Under the pieces are notes generated by a model, which worked only from the letters and a program-made list of their open reading frames with translations, did no database searches and had not been told where the DNA came from. Positions 4,899-44,573 of a DNA stretch of 64,000 bases are shown piece by piece; the stretch's first letter is position 1, and each line of letters begins with the position of its first letter. The translations under genes were made by a program, and so were the position numbers. Source of the stretch: Escherichia phage momo; sequence record MN850580.1. One strand, 5' to 3'.

Positions 4899-4974
4899 TG
4901 GAGAATCCGAAGGGACTCGAACCCTTATAAACCTGTTTTGCAGACAGGCACATATCCATTTCTGTCACGGATTC
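4899..4974 (-). tRNA. tRNA-Cys(GCA): tRNA-Cys (anticodon GCA), CCA encoded
   Basis: Manual cloverleaf: acceptor GAATCCG/CGGATTC, anticodon loop CUGCAAA, T-loop. Confidence 0.65.
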
Positions 4975-4978
4975 AAAT

Positions 4979-5071
4979 TGGAGGAAGATACCAGACTTGA
5001 ACTGGTACACCGATTTCTCAGCTACTGGCAGTTTAGCAAACTGCTCCCTTACCTTTTAGGGTTAATCTTCC
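4979..5071 (-). tRNA. tRNA-Ser(GCU): tRNA-Ser (anticodon GCU), long variable arm, CCA encoded
   Basis: 93 nt; acceptor GGAAGAT/ATCTTCC; anticodon loop UUGCUAA. Confidence 0.6.
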
Positions 5072-5072
5072 A

Positions 5073-5870
5073 TTATTTCTGTAATGCGCTCTTCATTTCT
5101 GGTGTTGCAATAGTGTCAATCACACCAGTTTTACAAGCATCGTCAAACCAGTCTGGTAAGATACCTGCTAAGAACCCATTGATATTCGTTTTAAGGTACT
5201 CTGCAATAAGGGCAGCTTCTTCTTCAATCATCTGCACAACTTCATCTGCATAAGCTGTAATCTTTGAAATACCTTCATTAATCTTACTGACAGCTTGGTT
5301 AGCTAAATCAGAAACAGTATCAAGACCCTTATCAATAGCATCTTGTAAGTCACTTAACACACCATTAACACTATCTAGTGTACTGTTCATCATGTCAATA
5401 GCTTTTTGACCATACTCTGTAGCAACACCCATGATACCACTGAATGGTGTACAACCAACTTGTTCTCCTGCTGCACCCATAACATTGGAATACCCCTTTG
5501 CTACCTGCATACGTGATGAAAACTCATCAATAGATTTTTGACCGTAGTCTGTCAGAGTTTTAGTAGTTGCTGTAGTGCTTGTAAGGCTTGTTGTAAAGCT
5601 GTTTAGAAGGACTGTTGTAAGTCCAGCAGCAACAAGTTTCTCCTTCATTGTAGGGTCTGTTACAGAACTAATAGAGCTTACAAGTGATGTAGAAGCAGCT
5701 ACGGTTCCACCGAGAACTGCTGCACCAGTAATAAGCGGGTTAGAGAACCCTTTACCAGTTTTTAAGAGATTAAAAATCTCCTTACCTTGTTCTGTCATCT
5801 CTTTCATTAAGCACCTTTGAAATTGGTAGTCCAGTGGGATTTGAACCCTCTTCTCATGTTTTTCAGACAC
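5073..5870 (-). CDS. hypothetical protein embedded in tRNA array
   Basis: 265-aa ORF between tRNA genes; Ser/Thr-rich middle region. Confidence 0.4.
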   Translation of the reverse strand: MSEKHEKRVQIPLDYQFQRCLMKEMTEQGKEIFNLLKTGKGFSNPLITGAAVLGGTVAASTSLVSSISSVTDPTMKEKLVAAGLTTVLLNSFTTSLTSTTATTKTLTDYGQKSIDEFSSRMQVAKGYSNVMGAAGEQVGCTPFSGIMGVATEYGQKAIDMMNSTLDSVNGVLSDLQDAIDKGLDTVSDLANQAVSKINEGISKITAYADEVVQMIEEEAALIAEYLKTNINGFLAGILPDWFDDACKTGVIDTIATPEMKSALQK

Positions 5871-5899
5871 GCGCTTTAACCATATAAGCTACTTGGACT
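5824..5899 (-). tRNA. tRNA-Phe(GAA): tRNA-Phe (anticodon GAA)
   Basis: Anticodon loop CUGAAAA, T-loop TTCAAAT, CCA encoded. Confidence 0.6.
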
Positions 5900-5905
5900 A
5901 TAAAT

Positions 5906-5981
5906 TGGGGTGACCTACGGGATTTGAACCCGTATAGACCATGTTCACAGCATGGGTCATTACCGTTTATGATAAGGCCAC
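5906..5981 (-). tRNA. tRNA-His(GUG): tRNA-His (anticodon GUG)
   Basis: Acceptor with one G-U pair; anticodon loop CUGUGAA; CCA encoded. Confidence 0.65.
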
Positions 5982-6012
5982 ATTTAAGGACTCTCGCAAG
6001 AATCCTTAGAAG

Positions 6013-6088
6013 TGGCAGCGGCATAAGGATTTGAACCTTAATAGGACAGCTTCAGAGGCTGCTGCATTGCCAGTTATGCTATACCGCT
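6013..6088 (-). tRNA. tRNA-Gln(CUG): tRNA-Gln (anticodon CUG)
   Basis: Anticodon stem GCAGC/GCUGU, loop CUCUGAA. Confidence 0.55.
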
Positions 6089-6093
6089 AAATT

Positions 6094-6172
6094 TGGTACT
6101 CCATATCGGATTCGAACCGATACATAACACAGATTTTAAGTCTGGCCTCTCTGCCAATTGGAGTAATGGAGC
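6094..6172 (-). tRNA. tRNA-Leu(UAA)?: tRNA with anticodon UAA (Leu by anticodon) but short variable loop
   Basis: Acceptor and T-arm clear; anticodon loop CUUAAAA; no long extra arm. Confidence 0.5.
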
Positions 6173-6174
6173 AT

Positions 6175-6250
6175 TGGCGGGGGATGTTGGAATTGAACCA
6201 ACTTCTTCGATTTCAAAGACCGAGGTTTTAACCTTGTAAACTAATCCCCT
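6175..6250 (-). tRNA. tRNA-Gln(UUG): tRNA-Gln (anticodon UUG)
   Basis: Anticodon stem UCGGU/AUCGA, loop CUUUGAA; possible 1-72 mismatch. Confidence 0.55.
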
Positions 6251-6258
6251 TTAAATCT

Positions 6259-6816
6259 TTACTTTCTCAGTGGATGAATAAAGAATGCCAACATAACTCT
6301 TTCCCTTGAGAATGCTCTTTCTTCTGGGACAACACTTTTTAGTTTCCATCCAACATAAATTCTCCAGTAAAACTGTTTACCAAAGATTTTAATTGACGGA
6401 ATAAAAGCGAATAATCCCCAAGCATTGTTGTTCCACATTAGGAGATAACCTGTCTGATTATCTTCAGGGTCAGAACTTACGTTGATATTACCTTTCCACT
6501 TAGTAACATCTTTTACATCTCTTCCTAATACATGGTAAGAGAAGTTATAAGCTTTGTTTCTCCAGAGCCATCCAACTCTCTGCATATAAACACCGAGCTT
6601 GCCAATCTTTCTAATCTTAGCCCATCTTTTAATGTGACCTTCATCACCATCAATAGGGTTGTCATATGTCTCCATCCATCTGAATCCAAAAGGTAGATGC
6701 CCTTTCTTCTCACTATAGAATGGAACTACAAAAGGTGCTAAGATAACTGCTAAGGTTGCTGCCAATGGGTCTAACAAAGCTAGGAAAATCCATGAAGCAT
6801 ACTTCAAATATCTCAT
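6259..6816 (-). CDS. hypothetical membrane protein embedded in tRNA array
   Basis: 185-aa ORF with hydrophobic N-terminal segment. Confidence 0.4.
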   Translation of the reverse strand: MRYLKYASWIFLALLDPLAATLAVILAPFVVPFYSEKKGHLPFGFRWMETYDNPIDGDEGHIKRWAKIRKIGKLGVYMQRVGWLWRNKAYNFSYHVLGRDVKDVTKWKGNINVSSDPEDNQTGYLLMWNNNAWGLFAFIPSIKIFGKQFYWRIYVGWKLKSVVPEERAFSRERVMLAFFIHPLRK

Positions 6817-6835
6817 TTAAATAGCCTCTTTAAAT

Positions 6836-6911
6836 TGGCGCAGGATAAGGGATTCGAACCCCTATTAACAGCTTCGTAGACTGCTGCTCTATCCATTTGA
6901 ACTAATCCTGC
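6836..6911 (-). tRNA. tRNA-Arg(ACG): tRNA-Arg (anticodon ACG)
   Basis: Perfect acceptor GCAGGAT/ATCCTGC; anticodon loop CUACGAA. Confidence 0.65.
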
Positions 6912-6916
6912 AAAAT

Positions 6917-6994
6917 TGGTGTTCCAAGACGGATTCGAACCGTCACTAGTACAAGGTTTGAGCTTGCATCCTCTGCCAATTGGGATATTGGAAC
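6917..6994 (-). tRNA. tRNA-Leu(CAA)?: tRNA with anticodon CAA (Leu by anticodon) but short variable loop
   Basis: Acceptor GUUCCAA/UUGGAAC; anticodon loop CUCAAAC. Confidence 0.5.
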
Positions 6995-6995
6995 A

Positions 6996-7070
6996 TGGTA
7001 CTCACTAAAGGACTTGAACCTTTTTCTTCATCTTGTAAGGGTGATGTTTTACCATATAAACTAAGCGAGT
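6996..7070 (-). tRNA. tRNA-Val(UAC): tRNA-Val (anticodon UAC)
   Basis: Anticodon loop CUUACAA; T-loop TTCAAGT. Confidence 0.55.
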
Positions 7071-7165
7071 ATGAAAGAGGTCTGAAGTTGTGCCGCTAAC
7101 TCAACTCCGTGGAATTTGTTACGGTCTTCAGTTGACACCAGCGGTCTTTCACTTGACCTCTGAAT

Positions 7166-7241
7166 TGGTGCTCCCACAAGGATTCGAACCCTGATAAGTT
7201 GCTTACAAGGCAACCGTAATAGCCAATTATACGATAGGAGC
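7166..7241 (-). tRNA. tRNA-Thr(UGU): tRNA-Thr (anticodon UGU)
   Basis: Anticodon stem GUUGC/GCAAC, loop CUUGUAA. Confidence 0.65.
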
Positions 7242-7248
7242 ATTAATT

Positions 7249-7323
7249 TGGAGCATCCAGAGGGAATCGAACCCTCAACCTCAGTTTGGAAGACTGTAAT
7301 TTTCCCGTTTAAACTATGGATGC
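7249..7323 (-). tRNA. tRNA-Gly(UCC): tRNA-Gly (anticodon UCC)
   Basis: Perfect acceptor GCAUCCA/UGGAUGC; anticodon loop CUUCCAA. Confidence 0.65.
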
Positions 7324-7329
7324 ACTAAT

Positions 7330-7403
7330 TGGTGGAGTCACTGAGAATTGAACTCAGTTCCCAAGTTTGCAAAACTCGAATTTTAACCATATAAACTATG
7401 ACC
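7330..7403 (-). tRNA. tRNA-Ala(UGC): tRNA-Ala (anticodon UGC)
   Basis: Acceptor GGGGUCA with G3-U70 pair (Ala identity element); anticodon loop UUUGCAA. Confidence 0.65.
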
Positions 7404-7410
7404 CCATTGT

Positions 7411-7486
7411 TTGGTACAGGTGGAGGGAATTGAACCCATCGTCTTACTGATTAAGAGTCAGCCGCATAACCATTTTGCTACACCTG
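7411..7486 (-). tRNA. tRNA-Lys(CUU): tRNA-Lys (anticodon CUU)
   Basis: Anticodon stem GCUGA/UCAGU, loop CUCUUAA; weak T-stem. Confidence 0.5.
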
Positions 7487-7493
7487 CATTAAT

Positions 7494-7571
7494 TTGGTAG
7501 GAGACAAGGGATTCGAACCCTCAAACATCTCGTTCTAAGCGAGATAGGTTTACCAATTACCGTCAATCTCC
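7494..7571 (-). tRNA. tRNA-Leu(UAG)?: tRNA with anticodon UAG (Leu by anticodon) but short variable loop
   Basis: Perfect anticodon stem UCUCG/CGAGA, loop CUUAGAA; 5-nt variable loop. Confidence 0.55.
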
Positions 7572-7830
7572 CATTAAATCTTTTTAGAGAACTTCTAAGA
7601 ACCTAAGCAACAAGGTTCCACAACAAGCTGTAATAACCTTAGAAGCCCTCTAAAAAGACCTAAAAAGGTCTTTGCATAGTCTTGTTTAATCCGGTGACTA
7701 GAACCTTTGGAGAGCTTGATATTATCTCTTCTCCGTGACACCTACTAGGTGCTTTACTGTGCGTGTACGACAATACACTAGGGATACCAAAGCAACATCC
7801 GAATGAAGCTTGGCTTTAAATCTTATTAGG

Positions 7831-7918
7831 CGGTAAGTAAAGGAGTCGAACCCTCACCGTATCTCTACAGTGGCAACTGTTTTCAAGACAGTTTGGCTAC
7901 CATTAGCCGCTACCTACC
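7831..7918 (-). tRNA. tRNA-Ser(UGA): tRNA-Ser (anticodon UGA), long variable arm, no encoded CCA
   Basis: Perfect anticodon stem ACUGU/ACAGU, loop CUUGAAA; discriminator G. Confidence 0.6.
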
Positions 7919-7931
7919 CCTAATAAGACTT

Positions 7932-8014
7932 TGGCATGGGACGGAGGAGTTGAACCACTTTGAAACGGTTTTGGAGGCCGTTGCTCATGCCTTAGAGTCT
8001 TAACATCGTCCCAC
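7932..8014 (-). tRNA. atypical tRNA-like gene (possible anticodon CCA, Trp) with extra nucleotides between acceptor and D region
   Basis: Clear acceptor GUGGGAC/GUCCCAU, T-arm and encoded CCA, but D-region does not fold canonically in manual fold. Confidence 0.4.
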
Positions 8015-8157
8015 ACTATAATTCGAAGCTTACCGTATTTTCACAACACTGTAAAGCCCCTTCTCAGATTATTTACATGTTCTGGAAAACATGAGATACA
8101 GACCACCTCCTTACACGGAGACCCGATAAGGTCGTCTAAGTAATCTGCTAACTAAAT

Positions 8158-8239
8158 TGGTCGAGGCGGCAGGACTCGAACCCGCATACTCCACTTACTC
8201 GGTTAACGGCGGTTTAGAAGACCGCTGAGATACGCCCCG
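8158..8239 (-). tRNA. atypical tRNA-like gene; one perfect 5-bp stem with loop CUUCUAA (UCU), no canonical D-arm
   Basis: Acceptor CGGGGCG/CGCCUCG, T-arm and CCA present; body folds ambiguously. Confidence 0.35.
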
Positions 8240-8487
8240 TAATTATCTTTAAAGACTCTCTTAGAAAGCCCTTAAAGATGCCCACCTTATTAATCATACC
8301 GTGGGCTAGTACGCCAAATTCTTTGATGAGGGATTGGAAGACCTCACTGGTGTTTAGCCTATCAAGCTACTGCCAGAAAAACATTGTCGTTTGCATTTAT
8401 TTTAAATTTGCAAAATAGACGCTACGCAACGAAAACTAAGGTTACTATAAAGTAGTCGCATCTCAATGTCAACAACTTTATTGAAAT

Positions 8488-8563
8488 TGGTACTGGTAGG
8501 TGGAATCGAACCACCGATGTTCCCTTATCAGGGGAGTGTTATAACCTTCTTAACTATACCAGC
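8488..8563 (-). tRNA. tRNA-Ile(GAU): tRNA-Ile (anticodon GAU)
   Basis: Anticodon loop CUGAUAA; T-arm GGUGG/CCACC. Confidence 0.6.
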
Positions 8564-8564
8564 T

Positions 8565-8641
8565 TGGAGGTTCAGATGGGAATCGAACCCACATTCATAG
8601 GGCTTATGAGACCCTTGCATTACCTTATCTGCGACTGAACC
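8565..8641 (-). tRNA. tRNA-Met(CAU): tRNA-Met (anticodon CAU)
   Basis: Perfect acceptor GGUUCAG/CUGAACC; anticodon loop CUCAUAA. Confidence 0.6.
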
Positions 8642-8645
8642 ATAT

Positions 8646-8720
8646 TGGTAGAAGTGGAGGGATTCGAACCCATCGCCTGTCAGATTAAAAGTCTGCCGCA
8701 TCACCATTCTGCTACACTTC
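8646..8720 (-). tRNA. tRNA-Lys(UUU): tRNA-Lys (anticodon UUU)
   Basis: Anticodon stem GCAGA/UCUGA (one G-U), loop CUUUUAA. Confidence 0.6.
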
Positions 8721-8872
8721 CATTAAATTATCTTTGTAGATAAGCTACCCAGACTTGCTTAAGGTCTGTAGCGATGTGACTTTTTGGGTTTAAATCTAGA
8801 ATTTACCCTTTCACCCTTTGTGGTCGCATACTCACAGGTAAGCTTAATAACTTATCTACAAAGATAATTACC

Positions 8873-9003
8873 AGACCGTTGTTTATCATCTTAAGTGCTA
8901 CCATTACACCAACTCGACCTCTGCCGAGTGAAGGAATCGAACCTTCGCCTTTTCTTTACCGAGAAATAGATTGTTTAAGTTTTGCTGTAAACGGTCTTCT
9001 GTA
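8873..9003 (-). repeat. tRNA-spacer hairpin repeat (CCAGACC...GGTCTTCTG) enclosing a T-arm-like hairpin
   Basis: Inverted termini CCAGACCGTT / AACGGTCTTCTG; internal GAAGG-AATCGAA-CCTTC with no matching acceptor stem. Confidence 0.4.
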
Positions 9004-9013
9004 AATTTGTTGA

Positions 9014-9113
9014 GCCAGACCAAGTTTTAAATTTTTTCAAAATTGAATTGGCTTGAAAATATCATACATTCTTGCTGTATTTGGTCTTCTACTCCTTTAA
9101 AGAATACTCGTAA
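9014..9113 (-). repeat. tRNA-spacer hairpin repeat (CCAGACC...GGTCTTCT)
   Basis: Same terminal inverted repeat as 8873-9003. Confidence 0.4.
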
Positions 9114-9152
9114 GAACTCTTTAAGGGAGGGGCTAAATAGCCCTCTCAAAAT

Positions 9153-9230
9153 TGGCGGTTACGAAGGGATTTGAACCCTCATCATCTCCCGTGACAGGGG
9201 AGTATTTTAACCAAATTAAACTACATAACC
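9153..9230 (-). tRNA. tRNA-Asp(GUC): tRNA-Asp (anticodon GUC)
   Basis: Perfect anticodon stem CUCCC/GGGAG, loop CUGUCAC. Confidence 0.65.
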
Positions 9231-9235
9231 TTTAT

Positions 9236-9323
9236 TGGTGTGCCGTGTAGGAGTCGAACCTACCGAGTCTCAATGACAAGGGATTTACAGTCCCCACCGC
9301 TACCATCTACGGGATAACGACAC
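9236..9323 (-). tRNA. tRNA-Tyr(GUA): tRNA-Tyr (anticodon GUA), long variable arm
   Basis: 85-nt body; anticodon loop CUGUAAA. Confidence 0.6.
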
Positions 9324-9331
9324 ATTTAATT

Positions 9332-9408
9332 TGGCGGTTAGTCAGGGATTCGAACCCTGTGCCATTCGCTTAACAGGCGACCGCACATACCTTATGTGCT
9401 TCCTAACC
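9332..9408 (-). tRNA. tRNA-Asn(GUU): tRNA-Asn (anticodon GUU)
   Basis: Anticodon loop CUGUUAA; T-arm CAGGG/CCCUG. Confidence 0.55.
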
Positions 9409-9418
9409 TTAATACATT

Positions 9419-9481
9419 GCCAGACCGTGTTTTTTCTTTTATCCGCAAAAAAGTATTTTGTTGCTGAATACGGTCTTCTGC
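9419..9481 (-). repeat. tRNA-spacer hairpin repeat (CAGACCGT...ACGGTCTTCTG)
   Basis: Terminal inverted repeat, immediately 3' of tRNA in transcript orientation. Confidence 0.4.
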
Positions 9482-9486
9482 AAAAT

Positions 9487-9563
9487 TGGAGGCGGGTGCA
9501 GGAGTCGAACCTGCCGATACCATGCTAATGAGACATGTGAGACGCCCTTTCTCTATACCCGCA
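9487..9563 (-). tRNA. tRNA-Met/Ile2(CAU): tRNA with anticodon CAU (initiator Met, elongator Met or lysidine Ile2)
   Basis: Anticodon stem CAUGU/GCAUG, loop CUCAUUA; possible 1-72 mismatch. Confidence 0.5.
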
Positions 9564-9574
9564 ATTCTTAATGA

Positions 9575-9648
9575 CCAGACCAAATCTCTTCTTTGTCCGA
9601 TTTACCTTCAGATGAATAAGATTAAGTTTGCTGTAATTGGTCTTCTGT
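9575..9648 (-). repeat. tRNA-spacer hairpin repeat (CCAGACCAA...TTGGTCTTCTG)
   Basis: Terminal inverted repeat as in the other spacers. Confidence 0.4.
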
Positions 9649-9654
9649 CAAAAC

Positions 9655-9732
9655 TGGCGTTCCAGAAGGGATTTGAACCCTCAGATATCCACTTTGAAAG
9701 AGTGGTGACTATACCATTTTGTCTACTGGAAC
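9655..9732 (-). tRNA. tRNA-Glu(UUC): tRNA-Glu (anticodon UUC)
   Basis: Perfect acceptor GUUCCAG/CUGGAAC; anticodon loop CUUUCAA. Confidence 0.65.
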
Positions 9733-9739
9733 ATTAATT

Positions 9740-9816
9740 TGGTCTCTGTTGGAGGACTTGAACCTCCGGCCTTACCGCCCCAAACGGAACGCTCTACCAA
9801 TCTGAGCTAAACAGAG
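9740..9816 (-). tRNA. tRNA-Pro(UGG): tRNA-Pro (anticodon UGG)
   Basis: Perfect acceptor CUCUGUU/AACAGAG; D-arm GCUC/GAGC; anticodon loop UUUGGGG. Confidence 0.65.
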
Positions 9817-26845: not shown

Positions 26846-26890
26846 TTCTTAGATTCTCCAGTTTAGGAAGTGGGCTTGATTGCCCGTCTG
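26846..26890 (-). repeat. leader half of cassette, no hairpin
   Basis: Leader motif with SD GGAG only. Confidence 0.45.
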
Positions 26891-27096
26891 ATGCAGATAT
26901 TAGATAACCATACTCAAAGAGTCAATAGGAATTTTAAAAATATTTTTTTTTTTTTTGCAAAGATTGTAATGAAACGGGTGCGCGCGACTACCATAAAACA
27001 GAACTACAATCAAGAATTATTTTTCAATCCGCTACAAATTTTTCTGTTGACTTTTATTTCCAGATGTGGTAGCCTTGTGAGAAATGGCGACATCCC

Positions 27097-27295
27097 CACC
27101 TGCACCCACCTACCTGCACAATTCTAAAATGATTTTTCTTGCCCGACCTGATTTTTCTCTGCACGTTTTGAAAATGAAAAAGCTCTTTGGAGATTACCTG
27201 CACAGTTTGAAAATGAATTTTCCCTTTGGAGTTCAAAATTTTCTCTACAGATTTCTCTACAGAACTCTACCTGCACAATCCTGAAATGAAAAAGC
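27097..27295. repeat. direct repeats (A/T)CCTGCACA...GAAAATGA, 5-6 copies
   Basis: Copies at about 27098, 27114, 27168, 27196, 27269; adjacent poly-T run at 26944-26958. Confidence 0.5.
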
Positions 27296-27362
27296 CCCCC
27301 TTACCTGAAAAATTTACCAGATAAGAAAGGCTTAGTCTATTGTGAATACTATACAGAATTTC

Positions 27363-28148
27363 TTAGTTCTTTGCGTCTAAGAAGGTTACTTCCGGTGAAG
27401 AGAAAACCGTCTCGATATCCTCATCATTTCTTGCATAGATGTAAGCATCTGCATCACTGCCAAATGTTACTGCAATTCTGTGATTGCTCTTCGACAGGTG
27501 GGTAACTAGAGCGTTACTTAGAGACATCTTCTCAACCGGAGGGTTACTTTGATGTATCTTACCTTTTCTTCGTCTGAAGAGGGTAACTGTATCATCTGTG
27601 AACATTACTACACCTGCAAAGTATTCTGGTTCACAGTAGTTATTCCAACCTGAGCGTAACTTGTGGTACATCTCTCCTTCGTAGACATACAGATAAACAT
27701 CTACACTCTTCATCACCTGATTAATGATAACTGTGACGGCTTGAGGGTCTAGCCCACCGATACCTGCACCAATCATAGGTAGACCAACTTTCTTCAACTG
27801 ATTGACTTCACAGTATCTGTTAAGCTGTTTCAAAGATGATTCTAAAGCACTGTATCGGGCATCTTTACCAGTCTTAAGCTGAGTGTAAAGGTTAGCTATT
27901 CGACCTTGTTTTAAACGTGCTACAGAGAAATTACCCAGTAAATTTTCACAGGGTTTGTGTCCTATACCACCTGCATATAGATAAACTTCTGTATCGGTCT
28001 CATATGCTTTTGGGTAAAGTTTAGAAATCTTGTCAGCGATACCTGCACCCATTAAATTCATACAGTTGCAACCGTGACCGATGATGTCAAACTTACCTTT
28101 ATCAAATGCGGCAAAGATATCACCATTGATTATTTTTACAATACCCAT
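27363..28148 (-). CDS. putative macro-domain-like protein (ADP-ribose binding/processing) with C-terminal extension
   Basis: N-terminal INGDIF...DIIGHGCNCMNLMGAGIA resembles the macro-domain N(A)AN and GGGV(A) motifs; assignment tentative. Confidence 0.35.
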   Translation of the reverse strand: MGIVKIINGDIFAAFDKGKFDIIGHGCNCMNLMGAGIADKISKLYPKAYETDTEVYLYAGGIGHKPCENLLGNFSVARLKQGRIANLYTQLKTGKDARYSALESSLKQLNRYCEVNQLKKVGLPMIGAGIGGLDPQAVTVIINQVMKSVDVYLYVYEGEMYHKLRSGWNNYCEPEYFAGVVMFTDDTVTLFRRRKGKIHQSNPPVEKMSLSNALVTHLSKSNHRIAVTFGSDADAYIYARNDEDIETVFSSPEVTFLDAKN

Positions 28149-28349
28149 TTAACATCTCTCCCAAGATTCTTTATCTTCTGAAGGTTTTACACGTTGTCCT
28201 TCGTGGTCTACCCAGATACATCCACAACCTTCACAGATTACTGGCATTGCATAGCCAGCTTTAAAGTCATCTTCAGTGATAAGACCTTTTAAGTCACCTG
28301 TATCACGTCCGAACATTTCGATAGAACAGTCTTTGCAGAAGTCAGCCAT
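28149..28349 (-). CDS. hypothetical Cys-rich small protein
   Basis: Start set at MADFCKDCSIEMF; C-terminal CEGCGC cluster. Confidence 0.35.
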   Translation of the reverse strand: MADFCKDCSIEMFGRDTGDLKGLITEDDFKAGYAMPVICEGCGCIWVDHEGQRVKPSEDKESWERC

Positions 28350-35538: not shown

Positions 35539-35874
35539 CTATCCAATATGCTTGCATGACTCACCTCTCATATTCTTGTAAAGGATAAAGCTTCTGTCAT
35601 GGACGATACTTGTAGACACTGCAAAGTTACTTTCAAGCATCTGTTTGTTTGGATTGTAGAAGCTTTCTTTAAACTCGTCAAGTGCAAATTGGTGATGTTG
35701 TGGAAGACCTTTTACACAGATTTTTATTGTGATTGCTGCTGCAATCTTGCCAGTCAGTTCTTCTTTAGCTGCTACTAAAATTTTGTTAAGGAACTTTTTA
35801 CCATCTTCAGGTTGCTTAATGTTCTCCCAACGTTCTTCTAGGACAACGTTAATGTTCATTTCTTTGATTTTCAT
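35539..35874 (-). CDS. hypothetical protein
   Basis: 111-aa ORF. Confidence 0.4.
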   Translation of the reverse strand: MKIKEMNINVVLEERWENIKQPEDGKKFLNKILVAAKEELTGKIAAAITIKICVKGLPQHHQFALDEFKESFYNPNKQMLESNFAVSTSIVHDRSFILYKNMRGESCKHIG

Positions 35875-35889
35875 AATCTTCTCCAGAAA

Positions 35890-35912
35890 TTAAAAAGGCT
35901 CCCGTAGGAGCC
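35890..35912 (-). terminator. rho-independent terminator after NAMPT-like gene
   Basis: GGCTCC-TACG-GGAGCC followed by TTTTTAATTT. Confidence 0.55.
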
Positions 35913-35927
35913 TCTTATCATATACTT

Positions 35928-37709
35928 TTAAAGCTGCTTGTCAATATTATTTCGAATATCTCCAAGAGTTGTATAACCGAACTGCTCAGAGTCGCTAAAG
36001 ACTAAACGTAAAGCACAAGCTTGGTGGTCAAGTACATCTGCAAAACTCTGGAATCCATAGCCATCTACAGCTTTCAGCTTATCACCATCCCACATAGGTG
36101 CTACACCACCAAAGGCAGATTTCTTAACACCACTATCTGTTTTAGGGTCTTTTGCAAGCATAATCTCTTTACCACCAATGCTTGCAAGAGTTGCTTTGAC
36201 AGCAAATGCGAAGGTGTCACGAGTCATGTACTGGTAAGTGTAAGAGCCTACACCAAACACTACGTTAGAGCTTGCAAAACCCATTTCATACAGACGCTTC
36301 AGGATTTCGTTTGCACGTTCCAGCGTGATAGAGTCACCATAGATAAGGCCGATGTGCTCATCCAGTACCTTAAACCCTTTAGAGTTAATAGTCCCTCCGA
36401 AGATGTTGTACAGGGTCTTAATAGCTCCATCAATCTCAGCTACAGGACGTGTTACAACGTTTGCAGAACCAACCATATAAGCGTTTTTCAACAGCACTGT
36501 ATCAGCAACTTCAAAGTCTTCTCTGTCAACAACCATTTCGTAGCCTTCTGACAGTAGCCATCCAGCAATACCATAATTGATGTTTTCAAGCTTCATGTTC
36601 AGAACAGCATTCAACATTGTGTCGCTGGCTTCAAGCTTGCTTAAGTGTTTGTAATAAGCCTTTTTAGCACATTCTAAGTGGATTGCTTTATAACCTGTGA
36701 CAATATGTACAGGGTCTCCAGAGTCAGGACGAATTACCAGTTTGCCATCACGTTCCATAATTTCTTTACGAAGTGCTGGTAAAATTTCTGACACAGTTCT
36801 CCAGAAGTTATAAGTGTCTGAAACAACACTTGCAATACCAGTTGGGTAAGTTTCTGTTAAGAAACGACGGAAGGTTTGTAACTCACCTTTAAAGCGTCTT
36901 TCTTCTTCAATCAACTCATTACCACCTTCCCAAGCAATGTTTGCACACATTACAGAGTGCTCAGTGGCTGGTACAGAGCTACCAATATCAGAGATTGGGT
37001 AGGACTGTCCATAGATTCGTTTAGCCGTATACACAGCAGGGAAGCTATCAGTTCCTTTAAAGCTGGTTAAGTGGCCTACAGCGTTAAATGCGTCATCAGT
37101 AAAGCCGGACATACCACGCATAGCAAAGTCATGGCACTGATAAGGCAAATGCAAGTCGTTGTCACAAGTAAGGTCAGCCCACTTCTTACAGATACGTTTG
37201 TAGTGCAATGCAATAGTTGCAATGGTACAAGCCTTCCAAATCTCAGCAGAGAAAGCATCTTCCAGATACCCCGCTACCCAATGGAAGCCTGAAACAGTGT
37301 TCTGGAAGACAATCATTGGGACGCGCATAGGGACAACTGTACCTTCTTCTACAGCGTATACTTCAACTGGTAGATAACCTAAGTCGTGAAGTGCTTCCCA
37401 GTGCTCTCGACCGATAGCATCTTTACCCAGAACACCATTCATGACTTCTAAGATTTCATCAATGGCTTCTTTTTTATCACGTTCAAAGAAAGTGGCGTTC
37501 CAGTGGTCTATCAAGTAATCTTTAACGAAACGTTGAATACCAAAAGCCACTACACCGTCAATTGCCAAAGGGCTGTTAAACCATTTATCACTACGTGGTG
37601 TCAGGTTCAACATAAGATATTGCGTAGCATCTGGATACTGATATATATGTGATGCCTTGTAAGCATCTGCATTAAGACCTGCTGGTACTGCGTAAAGTGA
37701 TTTAGTCAT
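35928..37709 (-). CDS. nicotinamide phosphoribosyltransferase (NAMPT/NadV) family protein; candidate Namat-like enzyme
   Basis: AYKASHIYQYP, HDFAMRG, LTSFKGTD, PATEHS, RPDSGDP match NAMPT motifs as recalled; 593 aa. Confidence 0.75.
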   Translation of the reverse strand: MTKSLYAVPAGLNADAYKASHIYQYPDATQYLMLNLTPRSDKWFNSPLAIDGVVAFGIQRFVKDYLIDHWNATFFERDKKEAIDEILEVMNGVLGKDAIGREHWEALHDLGYLPVEVYAVEEGTVVPMRVPMIVFQNTVSGFHWVAGYLEDAFSAEIWKACTIATIALHYKRICKKWADLTCDNDLHLPYQCHDFAMRGMSGFTDDAFNAVGHLTSFKGTDSFPAVYTAKRIYGQSYPISDIGSSVPATEHSVMCANIAWEGGNELIEEERRFKGELQTFRRFLTETYPTGIASVVSDTYNFWRTVSEILPALRKEIMERDGKLVIRPDSGDPVHIVTGYKAIHLECAKKAYYKHLSKLEASDTMLNAVLNMKLENINYGIAGWLLSEGYEMVVDREDFEVADTVLLKNAYMVGSANVVTRPVAEIDGAIKTLYNIFGGTINSKGFKVLDEHIGLIYGDSITLERANEILKRLYEMGFASSNVVFGVGSYTYQYMTRDTFAFAVKATLASIGGKEIMLAKDPKTDSGVKKSAFGGVAPMWDGDKLKAVDGYGFQSFADVLDHQACALRLVFSDSEQFGYTTLGDIRNNIDKQL

Positions 37710-37754
37710 CTTTTAATCTCTCTCAAAGTGGGGCTTTCAAGCCCCTATAAAGTT

Positions 37755-38651
37755 TCAATCAATGGTTGCTACAGTAACTTGGGCGTAATGTGTTAAGCCA
37801 CGGTCTTTAGCTTCACCTAAAGTGTTTGTAGTGTAGATATGGTCAATACCGTTGTCAAGTAAGTTTTCAACACCTTTAGAGAAAATACCATGAGTTACAT
37901 AGAGTTCCACACGTTTTGCACCTGCTTCACGTAGGTGTTTAGCTGCCTCTACGAAGGTTCGACCACCATCACAGATATCATCAAGAATCATGACAGTTTT
38001 ATCGGTCAAATCAACATCGTCAAGGATTCGCATACCAGTGATTTCTCCAGTCTTAAGATTGCGCACCTTAGACATTGTGATATACGGTTTATCCACCTCT
38101 TTAGCGGTATCTTCAGTCTTCTTAGCTGCACCTGCATCTGGGGCTACCAAGAAATCAATGCGTGGGTCACTTGCAAAGTGTACTGCCACATCTTTTTGCT
38201 TCATGCTTTGAAAGCACTTAAATAAGTTTTCTGCAACATTACTGTGAGGGTCAAGAGCACATACTGCATCAAAACCCATTGCATTAACTAGGTTGGCAAA
38301 GACTTTCAGTGCTGCTGCATCACCTTTGAACATGTGGCGGTCATATCGAGCATTTGGTAAGAACCCGAAAACAACGGTTTTCATCGCTGATTTCTGGGGA
38401 ACAAGACTGTCAACGGCATCCTTAGCCAAAGCTAATGCAAACAGTGTATCTTTGTCATATCCCTGTACAGTAATTATAACATTATCAATCTTACCAGCAT
38501 TACGCTCAGTAAACTTAACAAAATCTTCAGAGAAGTTTCCACCAATTTCTCCAGATGGGAATTGAATGATATTAAATTTTTCTGTGTGGAAGAATTTCTC
38601 TTGAGCGGTGACGACGGCTTCAATAACAGTTTTCATAGTTTTCTCTCTCAA
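37755..38651 (-). CDS. ribose-phosphate pyrophosphokinase (Prs) family protein; candidate Adps-like enzyme
   Basis: LDPHSNVAENLF, VAPDAGAAKK and ILDDICDGGRTFVEAAKHLREAGAKRVELYVTHGIFS match Prs PRPP-binding region. Confidence 0.75.
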   Translation of the reverse strand: MREKTMKTVIEAVVTAQEKFFHTEKFNIIQFPSGEIGGNFSEDFVKFTERNAGKIDNVIITVQGYDKDTLFALALAKDAVDSLVPQKSAMKTVVFGFLPNARYDRHMFKGDAAALKVFANLVNAMGFDAVCALDPHSNVAENLFKCFQSMKQKDVAVHFASDPRIDFLVAPDAGAAKKTEDTAKEVDKPYITMSKVRNLKTGEITGMRILDDVDLTDKTVMILDDICDGGRTFVEAAKHLREAGAKRVELYVTHGIFSKGVENLLDNGIDHIYTTNTLGEAKDRGLTHYAQVTVATID

Positions 38652-43060: not shown

Positions 43061-43376
43061 CTTGTTGTTCAGGTAAGTTCGCTAAGCTTACCCCGCTTTA
43101 TTCAAGCTGCTTACTGTCGCCAGTAAGTCCAGACTATATCTTCTACTTATTTCTAAGTAGCGTACCATTTCGAGTCGCTTGACCCTACACCGCTACATTC
43201 ATCACGGTTAGTCGTTCGGCATTTAGATGTACTCAAACTCATATTCGAAGTTATTCGGTATGTAAGACTCCTATGTTGTATAGTTTCTTACATCGTACAT
43301 CATTTAGCACAGGATTGTCTACATCTGTAGAGTTTCCCTGTTTAGGCACGTTTTAGATGAGCTATAGAGCTTGTTA
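43061..43376 (-). other. putative self-splicing group I intron in nrdD (no ORF)
   Basis: Interrupts nrdD; starts with in-frame TAA after exon-terminal U; R-like GACTAA and S-like AGATATAGTC elements, GNRA-capped hairpin CTTACTG-GCGA-CAGTAAG, ends in G. Confidence 0.6.
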
Positions 43377-44573
43377 ACCCATCGGTGAAATTACCTTACC
43401 AGAACGCTCAAAAGCCTCTGCTACAGCACCATGTCCAGTTACACTTAAGAAATCTGGATACATCGCTTTAGAGCAACACTCAATAGCTTTTTCAAACAAC
43501 CTTGCTTGGCATACATCAAGCTTATGTCTCGTTTCTTCATAGATATACACAAGTTTAGGGAACACAACAGGTTTTTTGCTTTTTCCTTGCCCGTTCATCC
43601 TTACGTTAAGGATTGTATTGGCAATCATAAACTGAAGACGGTTATCTTCATTGTGCATATCTGGTTCCAACAGACCAAATGTCAGAGTAGTAAATGCAAA
43701 ATCACCGCGACTGCAAGGAACAGTGTTAAGTTTCATTTCAAGAGATTGGAAACCTTGTGTTAACTCATTCTGTAATTGCTCCATTACGTAATTATAGTGT
43801 TGCTCTTTAGGGATTCCGTACTCTTCAGCTTTCTCTGAGTGGTACACTAAAGACTTCTTAGCATACGGTACAAGTACCTTATCAATCTCTGCTAAAGTAA
43901 AGCCACCAAATTGCTGTGCAGTTGCTGAAAGAACTACATCACCAATAACCTGTAAGGCTGACAGCACAGACTTCGGTTCACAGTATTCAATGCCAGACAT
44001 TTCAAAGCCACCTTTCAGCACTTTACCAATGTCAAACAGGCAACAGTTGATACCACCAAAAATTAGGTCTCTTAAATCATGGATATAGATAAACCCTTTT
44101 TCAATGGCTTCAAGTTCCTCTGGTGTTAAATGGTACTGTTTAAAGATTTCTTTAGTCAGGTAACCACGGATAATTGAACCTTTCGTAGAAATTAAACTGC
44201 TGTCAAAGTTAGCATTTTCACGGTCACCTAAGAAGAGTGTATCTTTAGTCTTCTGGTAGAGTTCATCCCAATTTTGAGCAACCTCTTTACGGTAATTTCT
44301 GTATGTTGAGTAAGACTCATAAATCTCGTGATTAACTTCTGCCAAAGCACCTTCAACAATACTGTGAATATCATTTACCGAGATAAGCAAATTATTCTGC
44401 TTAGTGGACTTTACCAAAATCCTCATGAATGCTGACTCAAGAGCTTGGGTAACATCTGGTGGAAGTTCTTTATATCCAACCCTGTTAGCTGACTTAGCTA
44501 CTGCTGCTAAAACTTTTTTTATATCAGGTTCTTCAAGTGAGCCGTTCTTTTTAATAATCTGTACTTTGTTCAT
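43377..44573 (-). CDS. nrdD: anaerobic ribonucleoside-triphosphate reductase NrdD, exon 1 (N-terminal ATP-cone and core)
   Basis: ATP-cone-like N-terminus (IIKKNGSLEEPDIKKV); spliced product about 714 aa, matching class III RNR size. Confidence 0.65.

What the first reader, a model, noticed from the sequence alone, without database searches (positions are those of the whole stretch)
27363..28148. Possible macro-domain protein near the NAD-related genes
The N-terminal ~110 aa (INGDIF...DIIGHGCNCMNLMGAGIA) resembles the macro-domain ADP-ribose-binding motifs. Macro domains bind or hydrolyse ADP-ribose derivatives, which would fit with the Prs-like/NAMPT-like pair about 8 kb away. Low-confidence motif call.
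Basis: inference. Interest (0 to 1): 0.35.

Follow-up and report, generated by a model that had tools for sequence, protein, structure and literature searches.

The report
Phage macro-domain ADP-ribose hydrolase gene
This Felix-O1-like phage gene really does encode a macro-domain (ADP-ribose-handling) enzyme; relatives in other phages disarm bacterial NAD+/ADP-ribose-based immunity, and this one carries an extra fast-evolving tail domain of unknown role, so it is a sound but largely already-annotated call.

Summary
The ORF at 27363..28148 (minus strand, 261 aa) is real. The window is a Felixounavirus. The protein is 100% identical to allfine_75, annotated "putative phosphatase".

**Macro domain.** Residues 1-157 are a genuine macro domain: Pfam PF01661 above its cut-off, PHROG 335 at E=8e-113, and an AlphaFold model (pLDDT 90) matching TARG1, DarG and Poa1p at TM 0.75-0.84.

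**Family.** It belongs to the phage Tk.4/Adpp family, with motifs HGCNC, NLYTQ and PxIGAGIGG. Two members have been tested:
- T4 Tk.4 ("AdfM") protects T4 from DarTG2.
- Vibrio phage Gary Adpp dephosphorylates ADPR-1''-phosphate, so that the Adps/Namat pair (NARP1) can rebuild NAD+ despite aRES defence.

The two residues essential in Adpp (H24, N27) are invariant here (H25, N28). The Prs-like/NAMPT-like pair 7.8 kb away is NARP1, which was discovered in the sibling phage Bas63.

**Function.** It is unproven here because the gene is not in the NARP1 operon, and a tree does not resolve whether it is nearer Tk.4 or Adpp.

**C-terminal domain.** Residues 158-261 form an orphan β-rich domain. It occurs only in these Ounavirinae proteins and evolves about twice as fast as the macro domain.

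Verdict: a new member of a known kind, of modest interest.

The parts
27363..28148 (-). Complete CDS, 261 aa plus TAA stop. Two-domain macro protein, identical to allfine_75 / QHR74029.1 'putative phosphatase'.
27678..28148 (-). N-terminal macro domain, residues 1-157.
   Evidence: Pfam PF01661. PDB profile hits cover residues 7-156. AF2 model plus Foldseek matches to TARG1, DarG and Poa1p.
28035..28076 (-). Loop-1 motif H25-G-C-N28-C-M-N-L-M-G-A-G-I-A38, the phosphate/ribose-binding loop. H25 and N28 correspond to H24 and N27 of Vibrio phage Gary Adpp, whose alanine mutants lose function.
   Evidence: Read from the sequence. Invariant columns. Alignment. Mutant list.
27879..27893 (-). N86-L-Y-T-Q90 motif. 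Q90 sits where TARG1 K84 and DarG K80 (the catalytic lysines) sit. SCO6735 also has Gln at this position.
   Evidence: PMC9411070
27747..27779 (-). Loop-2 motif P124-M-I-G-A-G-I-G-G-L-D134, the diphosphate-binding loop. G131 sits at the TARG1 D125 position.
27366..27677 (-). C-terminal orphan domain, residues 158-261: one helix, then 6-7 beta strands, then a C-terminal helix. Found only fused to this macro clade.
28156..28162 (-). Shine-Dalgarno-like GGGAGAG, 7 nt upstream of the ATG and inside the 3' end of the upstream ORF. That ORF's TAA stop abuts the macro ATG.
   Evidence: Read from the sequence.
27292..27333 (-). Terminator-like hairpin plus T-run, 30 nt after the stop codon. The macro gene looks like the last gene of its transcription unit.
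   Evidence: a consensus scan only
35928..37709 (-). Namat (NAMPT-like) of NARP1. Inferred pathway partner, not part of the gene.
   Evidence: Bas63 work
37755..38651 (-). Adps (Prs-like ADPR pyrophosphokinase) of NARP1. Inferred pathway partner. The listed ORF starts at a TTG, so the true start may be internal.

Best explanation
The gene encodes an active macro-domain hydrolase of the phage Tk.4/Adpp family that serves as a counter-defence enzyme. The macro domain binds an ADP-ribose derivative and removes the group attached to C1'' of the distal ribose. In this phage the most likely job is to dephosphorylate ADPR-1''-phosphate to ADPR. ADPR-1''-phosphate is the product of RES-type NAD+ phosphorylases such as the aRES defence system. 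The phage's own Adps and Namat (NARP1, 7.8 kb upstream) would then turn the ADPR back into NAD+. That would be an 'NARP1-AP' pathway with the phosphatase encoded in trans. Shown here: macro fold, family membership, conservation of the residues required in Adpp, and co-residence with NARP1. Inferred: the substrate, the activity and the physiological coupling. The C-terminal domain is probably a non-catalytic, fast-evolving binding or targeting module; its partner is unknown. This reading does not exclude the DarT2 reading below, because one enzyme could do both.
For: Macro fold and ADPR-binding loops. Same PHROG (335) as Gary Adpp and T4 Tk.4. BLASTP to NARP1-linked Adpp proteins gives 52-76 bits at 27-33% identity. 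Gary Adpp converts ADPR-1''P to ADPR in vitro and is needed for NARP1 to beat aRES, and 15% of NARP1 operons carry such a macro gene. The Adpp H24A and N27A mutants were engineered, and mutations in Adpp abolish anti-defence; these residues equal H25 and N28, which are invariant in 31 homologues. The H-x-C-N-C motif is shared with the yeast ADPR-1''P phosphatase Poa1p. NARP1 is present in the window and was functionally defined in the congeneric phage Bas63. The order NARP1 - rIIA - rIIB - ... - macro, all on one strand, is conserved in distant Ounavirinae.
Against: The gene is 7.8 kb and 12 genes from NARP1. It therefore fails the operon criterion used to define Adpp, and no Escherichia or Salmonella phage appears in that paper's table. 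The tested Adpp (Gary) is a weaker match (52 bits) than T4 Tk.4 (82 bits). The NJ tree does not place the Ounavirinae clade with Adpp. About 2,800 phage genomes carry the family, mostly T4-like phages; T4 has no NARP1 (my own knowledge), so the family has an NARP1-independent role. The Erwinia Kolesnikvirus orthologue has Q in place of H25. No assay exists for any Ounavirinae member.
Confidence: 0.45

Rival explanations
1. AdfM-like orphan antitoxin. The macro domain removes ADP-ribose that DarT2 places on thymidine in single-stranded phage DNA, restoring replication. It acts independently of NARP1.
For: The closest experimentally tested homologue is T4 Tk.4 (35% identity, 82 bits). Deleting it sensitises T4 to DarTG2. 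The only PADLOC hit is DarG (E=3.8e-13) and the only NCBIfam hit is DarG (E=1.3e-12). DarG macro domains are top structural matches. Q90 at the catalytic-lysine position is compatible with this chemistry: SCO6735 has Gln85 there, Q85A is inactive, and SCO6735 removes dT-ADPr and rescues cells from DarT. Like tk.4, the gene stands alone rather than sitting in a NARP1 operon.
Against: The DarG/TARG1 catalytic Lys is absent (Q90) and the TARG1 Asp is absent (G131). The NCBIfam DarG score of 47.7 is far below the 250-bit cut-off and covers the macro part only. The biochemically proven phage dT-ADPr hydrolase, PhiKZ gp104, is a true DarG-type macro (FPTK motif) and only 23% identical, 25.8 bits. 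The Tk.4 effect is genetic only, and enzymatic removal was assumed rather than shown. No DarTG data were found for any Felixounavirus.
Confidence: 0.35
2. It acts on another ADP-ribose conjugate. Candidates are degrading or sequestering ADPR-based immune signals (for example His-ADPR or cyclic ADPR isomers from Thoeris), reversing protein or RNA ADP-ribosylation, or recycling ADPR-cyclic-phosphate, a breakdown product of the NARP1 intermediate ADPR-PP.
For: Macro domains are generic ADPR-derivative binders and hydrolases (established knowledge). ADPR-cyclic phosphate was observed as a likely ADPR-PP hydrolysis product in Bas63 infection. P0026 groups with the Ounavirinae clade at 100% bootstrap and fuses the macro domain to a 'cyclic-phosphate processing' cREC domain.
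Against: No direct evidence for any of these. The C-terminal domain here shows no similarity to cREC. Both tested family members point to the other two substrates.
Confidence: 0.12
3. It is a catalytically dead or purely structural macro fold with no ADP-ribose-related role, or the two-domain ORF is an annotation artefact.
For: The classical catalytic Lys/Asp of TARG1 are absent.
Against: All ligand-binding loops and the H/N/Q residues are invariant across about 30 homologues down to 30% identity. The two-domain ORF is intact in more than 250 phage genomes. The model is confident across both domains.
Confidence: 0.05

Closest known systems
T4 Tk.4, named AdfM in the HIDEN-SEQ preprint (10.1101/2025.11.20.689424)
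   Same: Same PHROG 335. 35% identity over the whole macro domain. Identical HGCNC and NLYTQ motifs and the PxIGAGIG loop. A stand-alone gene in a lytic myovirus.
   Different: Tk.4 is macro-only (155 aa) with no C-terminal domain. T4 has no NARP1. Its role against DarTG2 is known from genetics only.
Adpp, the NARP1-associated ADPR-1''-phosphate phosphatase of Vibrio phage Gary (10.64898/2026.01.28.702374)
   Same: Same PHROG 335. The essential H24 and N27 are conserved as H25 and N28. The Q of N-x-Y-x-Q is conserved. The genome also encodes Adps and Namat.
   Different: 27% identity to Gary Adpp (30-33% to Pseudomonas Adpp proteins). Adpp lies inside the NARP1 operon and is macro-only (about 158 aa). 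Here the gene is 12 genes away and carries an extra domain.
Yeast Poa1p (PDB 6LFQ), ADP-ribose-1''-phosphate phosphatase
   Same: Macro fold (TMt 0.75). Shares the H-x-C-N-C...G-x-G-I-A loop.
   Different: Weak overall similarity (32 bits). Poa1p has Ser where this protein has Q90, and a long insertion before loop 2. It is a eukaryotic tRNA-splicing by-product enzyme.
DarG / TARG1 (ALC1-like macro class; PDB 5M31, 5M3I, 4J5S) and Streptomyces SCO6735
   Same: Best structural and profile matches (TMt about 0.8). MGAGIA loop. As in SCO6735, Gln occupies the catalytic-Lys position.
   Different: No catalytic Lys or Asp. No DarT partner. The C-terminal domain is unrelated to DarG's DarT-binding domain. 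Fails the NCBIfam DarG cut-off.
PhiKZ gp104, also named AdfM (PMC13309987)
   Same: A phage macro protein in PHROG 335 with a counter-defence role.
   Different: A true DarG-type macro (VNVVGVMG, FPTK). Only 23% identical, 25.8 bits. A different clade, despite the shared name with T4 Tk.4.

Membership tests
Macro domain superfamily (Pfam PF01661) | Profile match above the curated gathering score | tested here: met
   32.3 bits against a cut-off of 22, E=1.1e-7, residues 25-141 covering profile positions 2-117 of 118.
Macro domain superfamily (Pfam PF01661) | Three-layer alpha/beta/alpha macro fold superposable on solved macro domains | tested here: met
   AF2 pLDDT 90.2. Foldseek: TARG1 E=3e-10, TMt 0.81-0.84; DarG 0.79-0.82; Poa1p 0.75; 241 PDB hits at E<=1e-3.
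Macro domain superfamily (Pfam PF01661) | Glycine-rich ADPR-binding loops 1 and 2 | tested here: met
   MGAGIA (residues 33-38) and PMIGAGIGG (124-132) align with the corresponding loops of TARG1, DarG and Poa1p, and are invariant or nearly invariant in the family.
Macro domain superfamily (Pfam PF01661) | Binds ADP-ribose or a derivative | not testable with these tools
   Needs ITC, a thermal-shift assay or a co-crystal.
Phage Tk.4/Adpp family (PHROG 335) | Strong profile match shared with the tested members | tested here: met
   phrog_335 E=7.6e-113 for this protein. T4 Tk.4 scores 1.3e-65 and Gary Adpp 1.3e-49 against the same PHROG.
Phage Tk.4/Adpp family (PHROG 335) | Signature motifs H-x-C/A-N-C and N-x-Y/H-x-Q, including the His and Asn required in Gary Adpp | tested here: met
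   H25, N28 and Q90 are present and invariant. H24A and N27A are the Adpp mutants.
Adpp as defined by Osterman et al. (NARP1-AP) | Encoded within two genes of Adps/Namat | tested here: not met
   7.8 kb away. In allfine, 12 annotated genes (allfine_76-87) lie between. The criterion is given. No Escherichia or Salmonella phage is in their Table S1.
Adpp as defined by Osterman et al. (NARP1-AP) | Same genome encodes a NARP1 pair | tested here: met
   Namat at 35928-37709 and Adps at 37755-38651, with NAPRTase/NAMPT_N and Pribosyltran/Pribosyl_synth Pfam hits. At least 90% nucleotide identity in about 215 Felixounavirus records. NARP1 was defined in the Felixounavirus Bas63.
Adpp as defined by Osterman et al. 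(NARP1-AP) | ADPR-1''P phosphatase activity and anti-aRES phenotype | not testable with these tools
   Requires enzymology and phage genetics.
Orthology to Tk.4 versus Adpp subgroups | Supported phylogenetic placement in one subgroup | tested here: inconclusive
   NJ tree with 100 bootstraps: the Ounavirinae two-domain clade has 99% support, but its relation to the Tk.4 clade (90%) and the Adpp clades is below 50%. Bit scores form a continuum: 82 to Tk.4, 52-76 to Adpp proteins.
DarG antitoxin (DarTG2) / TARG1 | Catalytic lysine (DarG K80, TARG1 K84), and Asp125 in TARG1 | tested here: not met
   Q90 and G131 occupy these positions.
DarG antitoxin (DarTG2) / TARG1 | Full-length equivalog score and the C-terminal DarT-binding domain | tested here: not met
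   NCBIfam NF048014 scores 47.7 bits against a cut-off of 250, covering profile positions 4-153 of 338 only. PADLOC DarG covers 18-146 of 329 only. Foldseek of the C-terminal domain against the PDB gives no hit with E<0.1.
DarG antitoxin (DarTG2) / TARG1 | Adjacent DarT toxin gene | tested here: not met
   This is a lytic phage gene block. The eight neighbouring ORFs scanned have no Pfam match above threshold, and no DarT is annotated in allfine.
SCO6735-type (Gln-dependent) ALC1-like macro hydrolases | Gln at the catalytic-Lys position | tested here: met
   Q90 is invariant. The role of SCO6735 Gln85 is described. Overall similarity to SCO6735 (5e3b) is weak, E=0.18-0.52, so this is a mechanistic analogy and not membership.

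The most novel reading that the evidence does not exclude
The Ounavirinae protein is a bipartite, dual-purpose counter-defence factor. The Tk.4/Adpp-type macro domain handles both ADPR-1''-phosphate (making the unlinked NARP1 of Felix-O1-like phages, including Bas63, resistant to aRES) and DarT2-modified DNA. The orphan, rapidly diverging C-terminal domain is a binding module that docks onto a host defence protein or onto the phage's own Adps/Namat. That architecture would be analogous to, but unrelated in fold to, DarG's macro plus toxin-binding arrangement.
Probability: 0.15. Interest if true: 0.6.

Novelty: new member of a known kind. Interest (0 to 1): 0.35.

Why it matters
Macro-domain enzymes of this phage family were shown to be anti-defence factors only in 2025-2026. 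If the Felixounavirus copy works with NARP1 in trans, the operon-based census (15% of NARP1 systems carrying a phosphatase) undercounts aRES-resistant phages. Bas63, the phage in which NARP1 was discovered, would already carry the extended pathway. Felix-O1-like phages are widely used for Salmonella and E. coli typing and biocontrol, so knowing which NAD+/ADP-ribose defences they evade has practical value. The family also poses a clean biochemical question: can one active site (His/Asn/Gln, no Lys) serve both as an ADPR-1''P phosphatase and as a thymidine-ADPr glycohydrolase? The orphan C-terminal domain is a small, tractable unknown.

Tried and rejected
**Identity of the C-terminal domain.** None of these gave a usable match:
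- Pfam, PADLOC and NCBIfam on residues 157-261 gave nothing. The only Pfam line was NAC at E=0.12, treated as noise.
- The PDB sequence profile never extends past about residue 170.
- Foldseek against the PDB: best hit E=0.18, TM 0.34, a bacterial PH-like DUF1696. I reject this as insignificant.
- Foldseek against BFVD returned only the SUSP2 orthologue.
- An HMM search of 1.84 billion representative proteins returned only the two-domain proteins, their fragments (P0032, P0036), and repeat-rich giants (reverse-transcriptase, PQQ and sortilin-type repeats). The giants score through multiple short stretches, so I reject them as spurious.

**Other ideas tested and dropped.**
- A DarG-like toxin-binding or ssDNA-mimic C-terminal domain: no fold hit, and net charge is not conserved (-4 to +5).
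- A cREC-like C-terminal domain as in P0026: hhalign probability 0.4%.
- A conserved partner gene upstream: the translationally coupled 66-aa Cys-rich ORF is not conserved in the distant relative L004. Neighbouring ORFs have no Pfam match above threshold.
- An RNA gene in the 500-bp gap downstream: no Rfam or tRNA hit there.

**Limits.**
- I tried to fetch the Bas63 record by guessing BASEL accessions and failed. I relied on taxonomy and genus-wide nucleotide identity instead.
- I could not inspect the domain interface, because model coordinates are not exposed.

Full report
**1. The observation**

The window holds an uninterrupted ORF at 27363..28148 on the minus strand: ATG start, TAA stop, 261 aa.

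A GGGAGAG Shine-Dalgarno-like element lies 7 nt upstream of the ATG. The ATG directly abuts the TAA of the upstream 66-aa ORF. A hairpin plus T-run follows the stop codon at 27333-27292 (a consensus scan only).

The DNA belongs to a Felix-O1-like phage. A 3-kb stretch around the gene matches 242 phage records, nearly all Felixounavirus, at 90-99% identity. The protein is 100% identical to allfine_75 (QHR74029.1, "putative phosphatase") of Escherichia phage allfine. Depositors of sibling genomes already label the orthologue "macro domain protein", "phosphatase" or "ymdB: O-acetyl-ADP-ribose deacetylase".

**2. It is a macro domain**

- Pfam PF01661 matches residues 25-141 across essentially the whole profile, above the curated cut-off (32.3 against 22 bits, E=1.1e-7).
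- Sequence search of the PDB finds TARG1/OARD1, DarG, the coronavirus Mac1 domain and Poa1p.
- With a profile of 18 full-length homologues, these sharpen to TARG1 3.7e-11, M. tuberculosis DarG 3.4e-9 and T. aquaticus DarG 1.5e-7.
- An AlphaFold2 model built on 31 homologues is confident (pLDDT 90.2, pTM 0.89).
- Foldseek places its N-terminal part on TARG1 (TMt 0.81-0.84), DarG (0.79-0.82) and Poa1p (0.75). There are 241 PDB hits at E<=1e-3, the 50 best of which are almost all macro domains.

The domain is about 157 residues long, not about 110.

**3. Which macro family**

PHROG 335 ("phosphatase") matches at E=7.6e-113. T4 Tk.4, Vibrio phage Gary Adpp and PhiKZ gp104 fall in the same PHROG.

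tblastn finds relatives of the N-terminal 157 residues in about 2,800 phage genomes, most of them T4-like.

Alignment shows three invariant motifs shared with T4 Tk.4 and with the NARP1-associated Adpp proteins:
- H25-G-C-N28-C...M-G-A-G-I-A
- N86-L-Y-T-Q90
- P124-x-I-G-A-G-I-G-G

The first motif is shared with yeast Poa1p (HSCNC...GGGIA). I confirmed my recalled Poa1p and DarG sequences as exact PDB matches.

The catalytic lysine of TARG1 (K84) and DarG (K80) is replaced by the invariant Q90. TARG1 D125 is replaced by G131. The protein is therefore not a DarG or TARG1 orthologue. The NCBIfam DarG equivalog model gives 47.7 bits against a 250-bit cut-off, over the macro part only. PADLOC's DarG model likewise covers only the macro part.

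A Gln at this position does not mean the enzyme is inactive. In Streptomyces SCO6735 the equivalent Gln85 is essential, and that enzyme removes thymidine-linked ADP-ribose from DNA (PMC9411070).

**4. What tested relatives do**

(a) T4 Tk.4 is 35% identical (82 bits). A transposon screen and a clean knockout showed tk.4 is needed for T4 to plate on DarTG2-expressing E. coli, and the authors named it AdfM. They assumed, but did not show, enzymatic removal of ADP-ribose from DNA (10.1101/2025.11.20.689424).

(b) Gary Adpp is 27% identical to this protein; other Adpp proteins reach 33% identity and 76 bits.
- Osterman et al. found that RES-domain defence proteins (aRES) phosphorolyse NAD+ to nicotinamide plus ADPR-1''-phosphate, which NARP1 cannot use.
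- A macro gene embedded in 15% of NARP1 operons encodes a phosphatase that converts ADPR-1''P to ADPR in vitro and restores counter-defence.
- Mutations in Adpp abolish the effect. The engineered mutants are H24A and N27A (10.64898/2026.01.28.702374).
- These residues are H25 and N28 here, both invariant.

(c) PhiKZ gp104 is also called AdfM and is biochemically shown to de-ADP-ribosylate DarT2-modified DNA (PMC13309987). It is a true DarG-type macro (VNVVGVMG, FPTK) and only 23% identical, 25.8 bits. The name AdfM therefore currently covers two different macro clades.

**5. The NAD genes**

The Prs-like and NAMPT-like ORFs lie at 37755..38651 and 35928..37709 on the minus strand. This pair is conserved at 90% identity or more in about 215 Felixounavirus records.

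This two-gene operon is NARP1 (Adps + Namat). It was discovered by deleting genes 79-80 of phage Bas63, and Bas63 is a Felixounavirus.

The macro gene lies 7.8 kb downstream on the same strand, with 12 annotated genes between them in allfine, including rIIA, rIIB, a lysin, a PNK-like gene and spanins. The same order is kept in a distant metagenomic relative (L004) and in Pectobacterium phage Wc4.

Osterman et al. looked only within two genes of NARP1. Their table contains no Escherichia or Salmonella phage. This possible in-trans phosphatase is therefore not covered by their census.

**6. Can the two candidate functions be separated?**

Not with sequence data.
- Bit scores form a continuum: 82 to Tk.4 and 52-76 to Adpp proteins. 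T4 Tk.4 itself scores 84 bits to the Acinetobacter phiAbaA1 Adpp.
- In an NJ tree with 100 bootstraps, the two-domain Ounavirinae proteins form a 99% clade. Its position relative to the Tk.4 clade and the Adpp clades is unsupported. All the phage proteins together group at only 61%.
- All active-site residues are shared among the three groups.

The most economical view is one enzyme chemistry, cleavage at C1'' of the distal ribose, put to use against whichever defence the phage meets.

I rank ADPR-1''P to ADPR for NARP1 first (0.45). My reasons are that this genome invests in NARP1, the His/Asn pair required for that activity is conserved, and the motif set is Poa1p-like. DarT2 reversal is a close second (0.35). 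The two are not mutually exclusive.

**7. The C-terminal domain (residues 158-261)**

- It is modelled confidently in the full-length prediction (block pLDDT 83-94) and moderately when modelled alone (75).
- The predicted layout is a helix, then six to seven beta strands, then a C-terminal helix.
- Nothing significant matches it. Pfam, PADLOC and NCBIfam are empty. The best Foldseek PDB hit has E=0.18 (a PH-like fold, TM 0.34). BFVD returns only its own orthologue.
- A profile search of 1.84 billion representative proteins finds it only in these macro fusions. The other hits are gene-call fragments and spurious repeat proteins.
- It diverges about twice as fast as the macro domain. Against P0012 the macro domain is 43% identical and the C-terminal domain 15%.
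- It has no invariant polar residue; only N170, P174, F177, G179 and Y236 are conserved. Net charge varies from -4 to +5.
- In the Erwinia Kolesnikvirus orthologue (260 aa), the C-terminal 100 residues are no longer recognisably related (hhalign probability 0.1%).

This pattern fits a non-catalytic binding or targeting module under diversifying pressure. Its partner is unknown.

**8. Verdict**

The gene is a previously uncharacterised member of a known family that has recently become interesting. Its architecture is a variant (an added orphan domain), and it has a testable, plausible link to NARP1. The macro-domain call itself is already in public annotations, so overall interest is modest (0.35).

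Noticed in passing
window 27111-27304 (intergenic gap 26846-27362): The 500-bp gap downstream of the macro gene holds 3-4 copies of a 28-34-nt direct repeat (TACCTGCAC[A/G]nTTnnAAAATGA...) at 27111, 27159, 27195 and 27268. It also holds a perfect 12-nt tandem, TTTCTCTACAGA x2, at 27240-27263. No Rfam or tRNA hit lies there. These could be regulatory or promoter repeats for the next transcription unit.
   Followed up: partly
window 28149-28349 (-): A 66-aa Cys-rich ORF (CxxC ... CEGCGC, zinc-ribbon-like) has a TAA stop that abuts the macro ATG, which suggests translational coupling. It has no Pfam hit and is not conserved upstream of the macro gene in the distant relative L004.
   Followed up: partly
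window 43110-43437 (-): Group I catalytic intron match (RF00028, 54.4 bits against a gathering score of 50).
   Followed up: no
window 4899-9816 (-): A cluster of 25 tRNA genes, typical of Felix-O1-like phages.
   Followed up: no
window 27363-28148 versus 35600-38400: Mosaicism. The macro protein is 100% identical to phage allfine, but the NARP1 region is only 93% identical to allfine and 98.4% identical to phage garuso.
   Followed up: no
L009:1498-2280 (Erwinia phage vEam_W_25, Kolesnikvirus): The orthologue has Q in place of the His that is essential in Adpp (GQGCNC instead of GHGCNC). Its C-terminal 100 aa have no detectable similarity to the Felixounavirus C-terminal domain.
   Followed up: partly
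P0026 (339 aa, metagenomic): P0026 groups with the Ounavirinae clade at 100% bootstrap. It fuses the macro domain to PF20274 cREC_REC, a 'cyclic-phosphate processing receiver' domain. This hints at ADPR-cyclic-phosphate chemistry in a sister lineage.
   Followed up: partly
literature; L002:1498-1965 (T4 tk.4) and L005:12518-13006 (PhiKZ gp104): Two 2025-2026 papers both use the name AdfM, for T4 Tk.4 and for PhiKZ gp104. These are different macro clades: NLYTQ without Lys versus DarG-type FPTK with Lys, scoring only 21 bits to each other.
   Followed up: yes
GenBank GU169904.1 'Staphylococcus phage SA1' (hits H6, H125): A record labelled as a Staphylococcus phage carries Felix-O1-like sequence at 92-95% identity across both queried regions. 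It is probably a chimeric or contaminated assembly.
   Followed up: no
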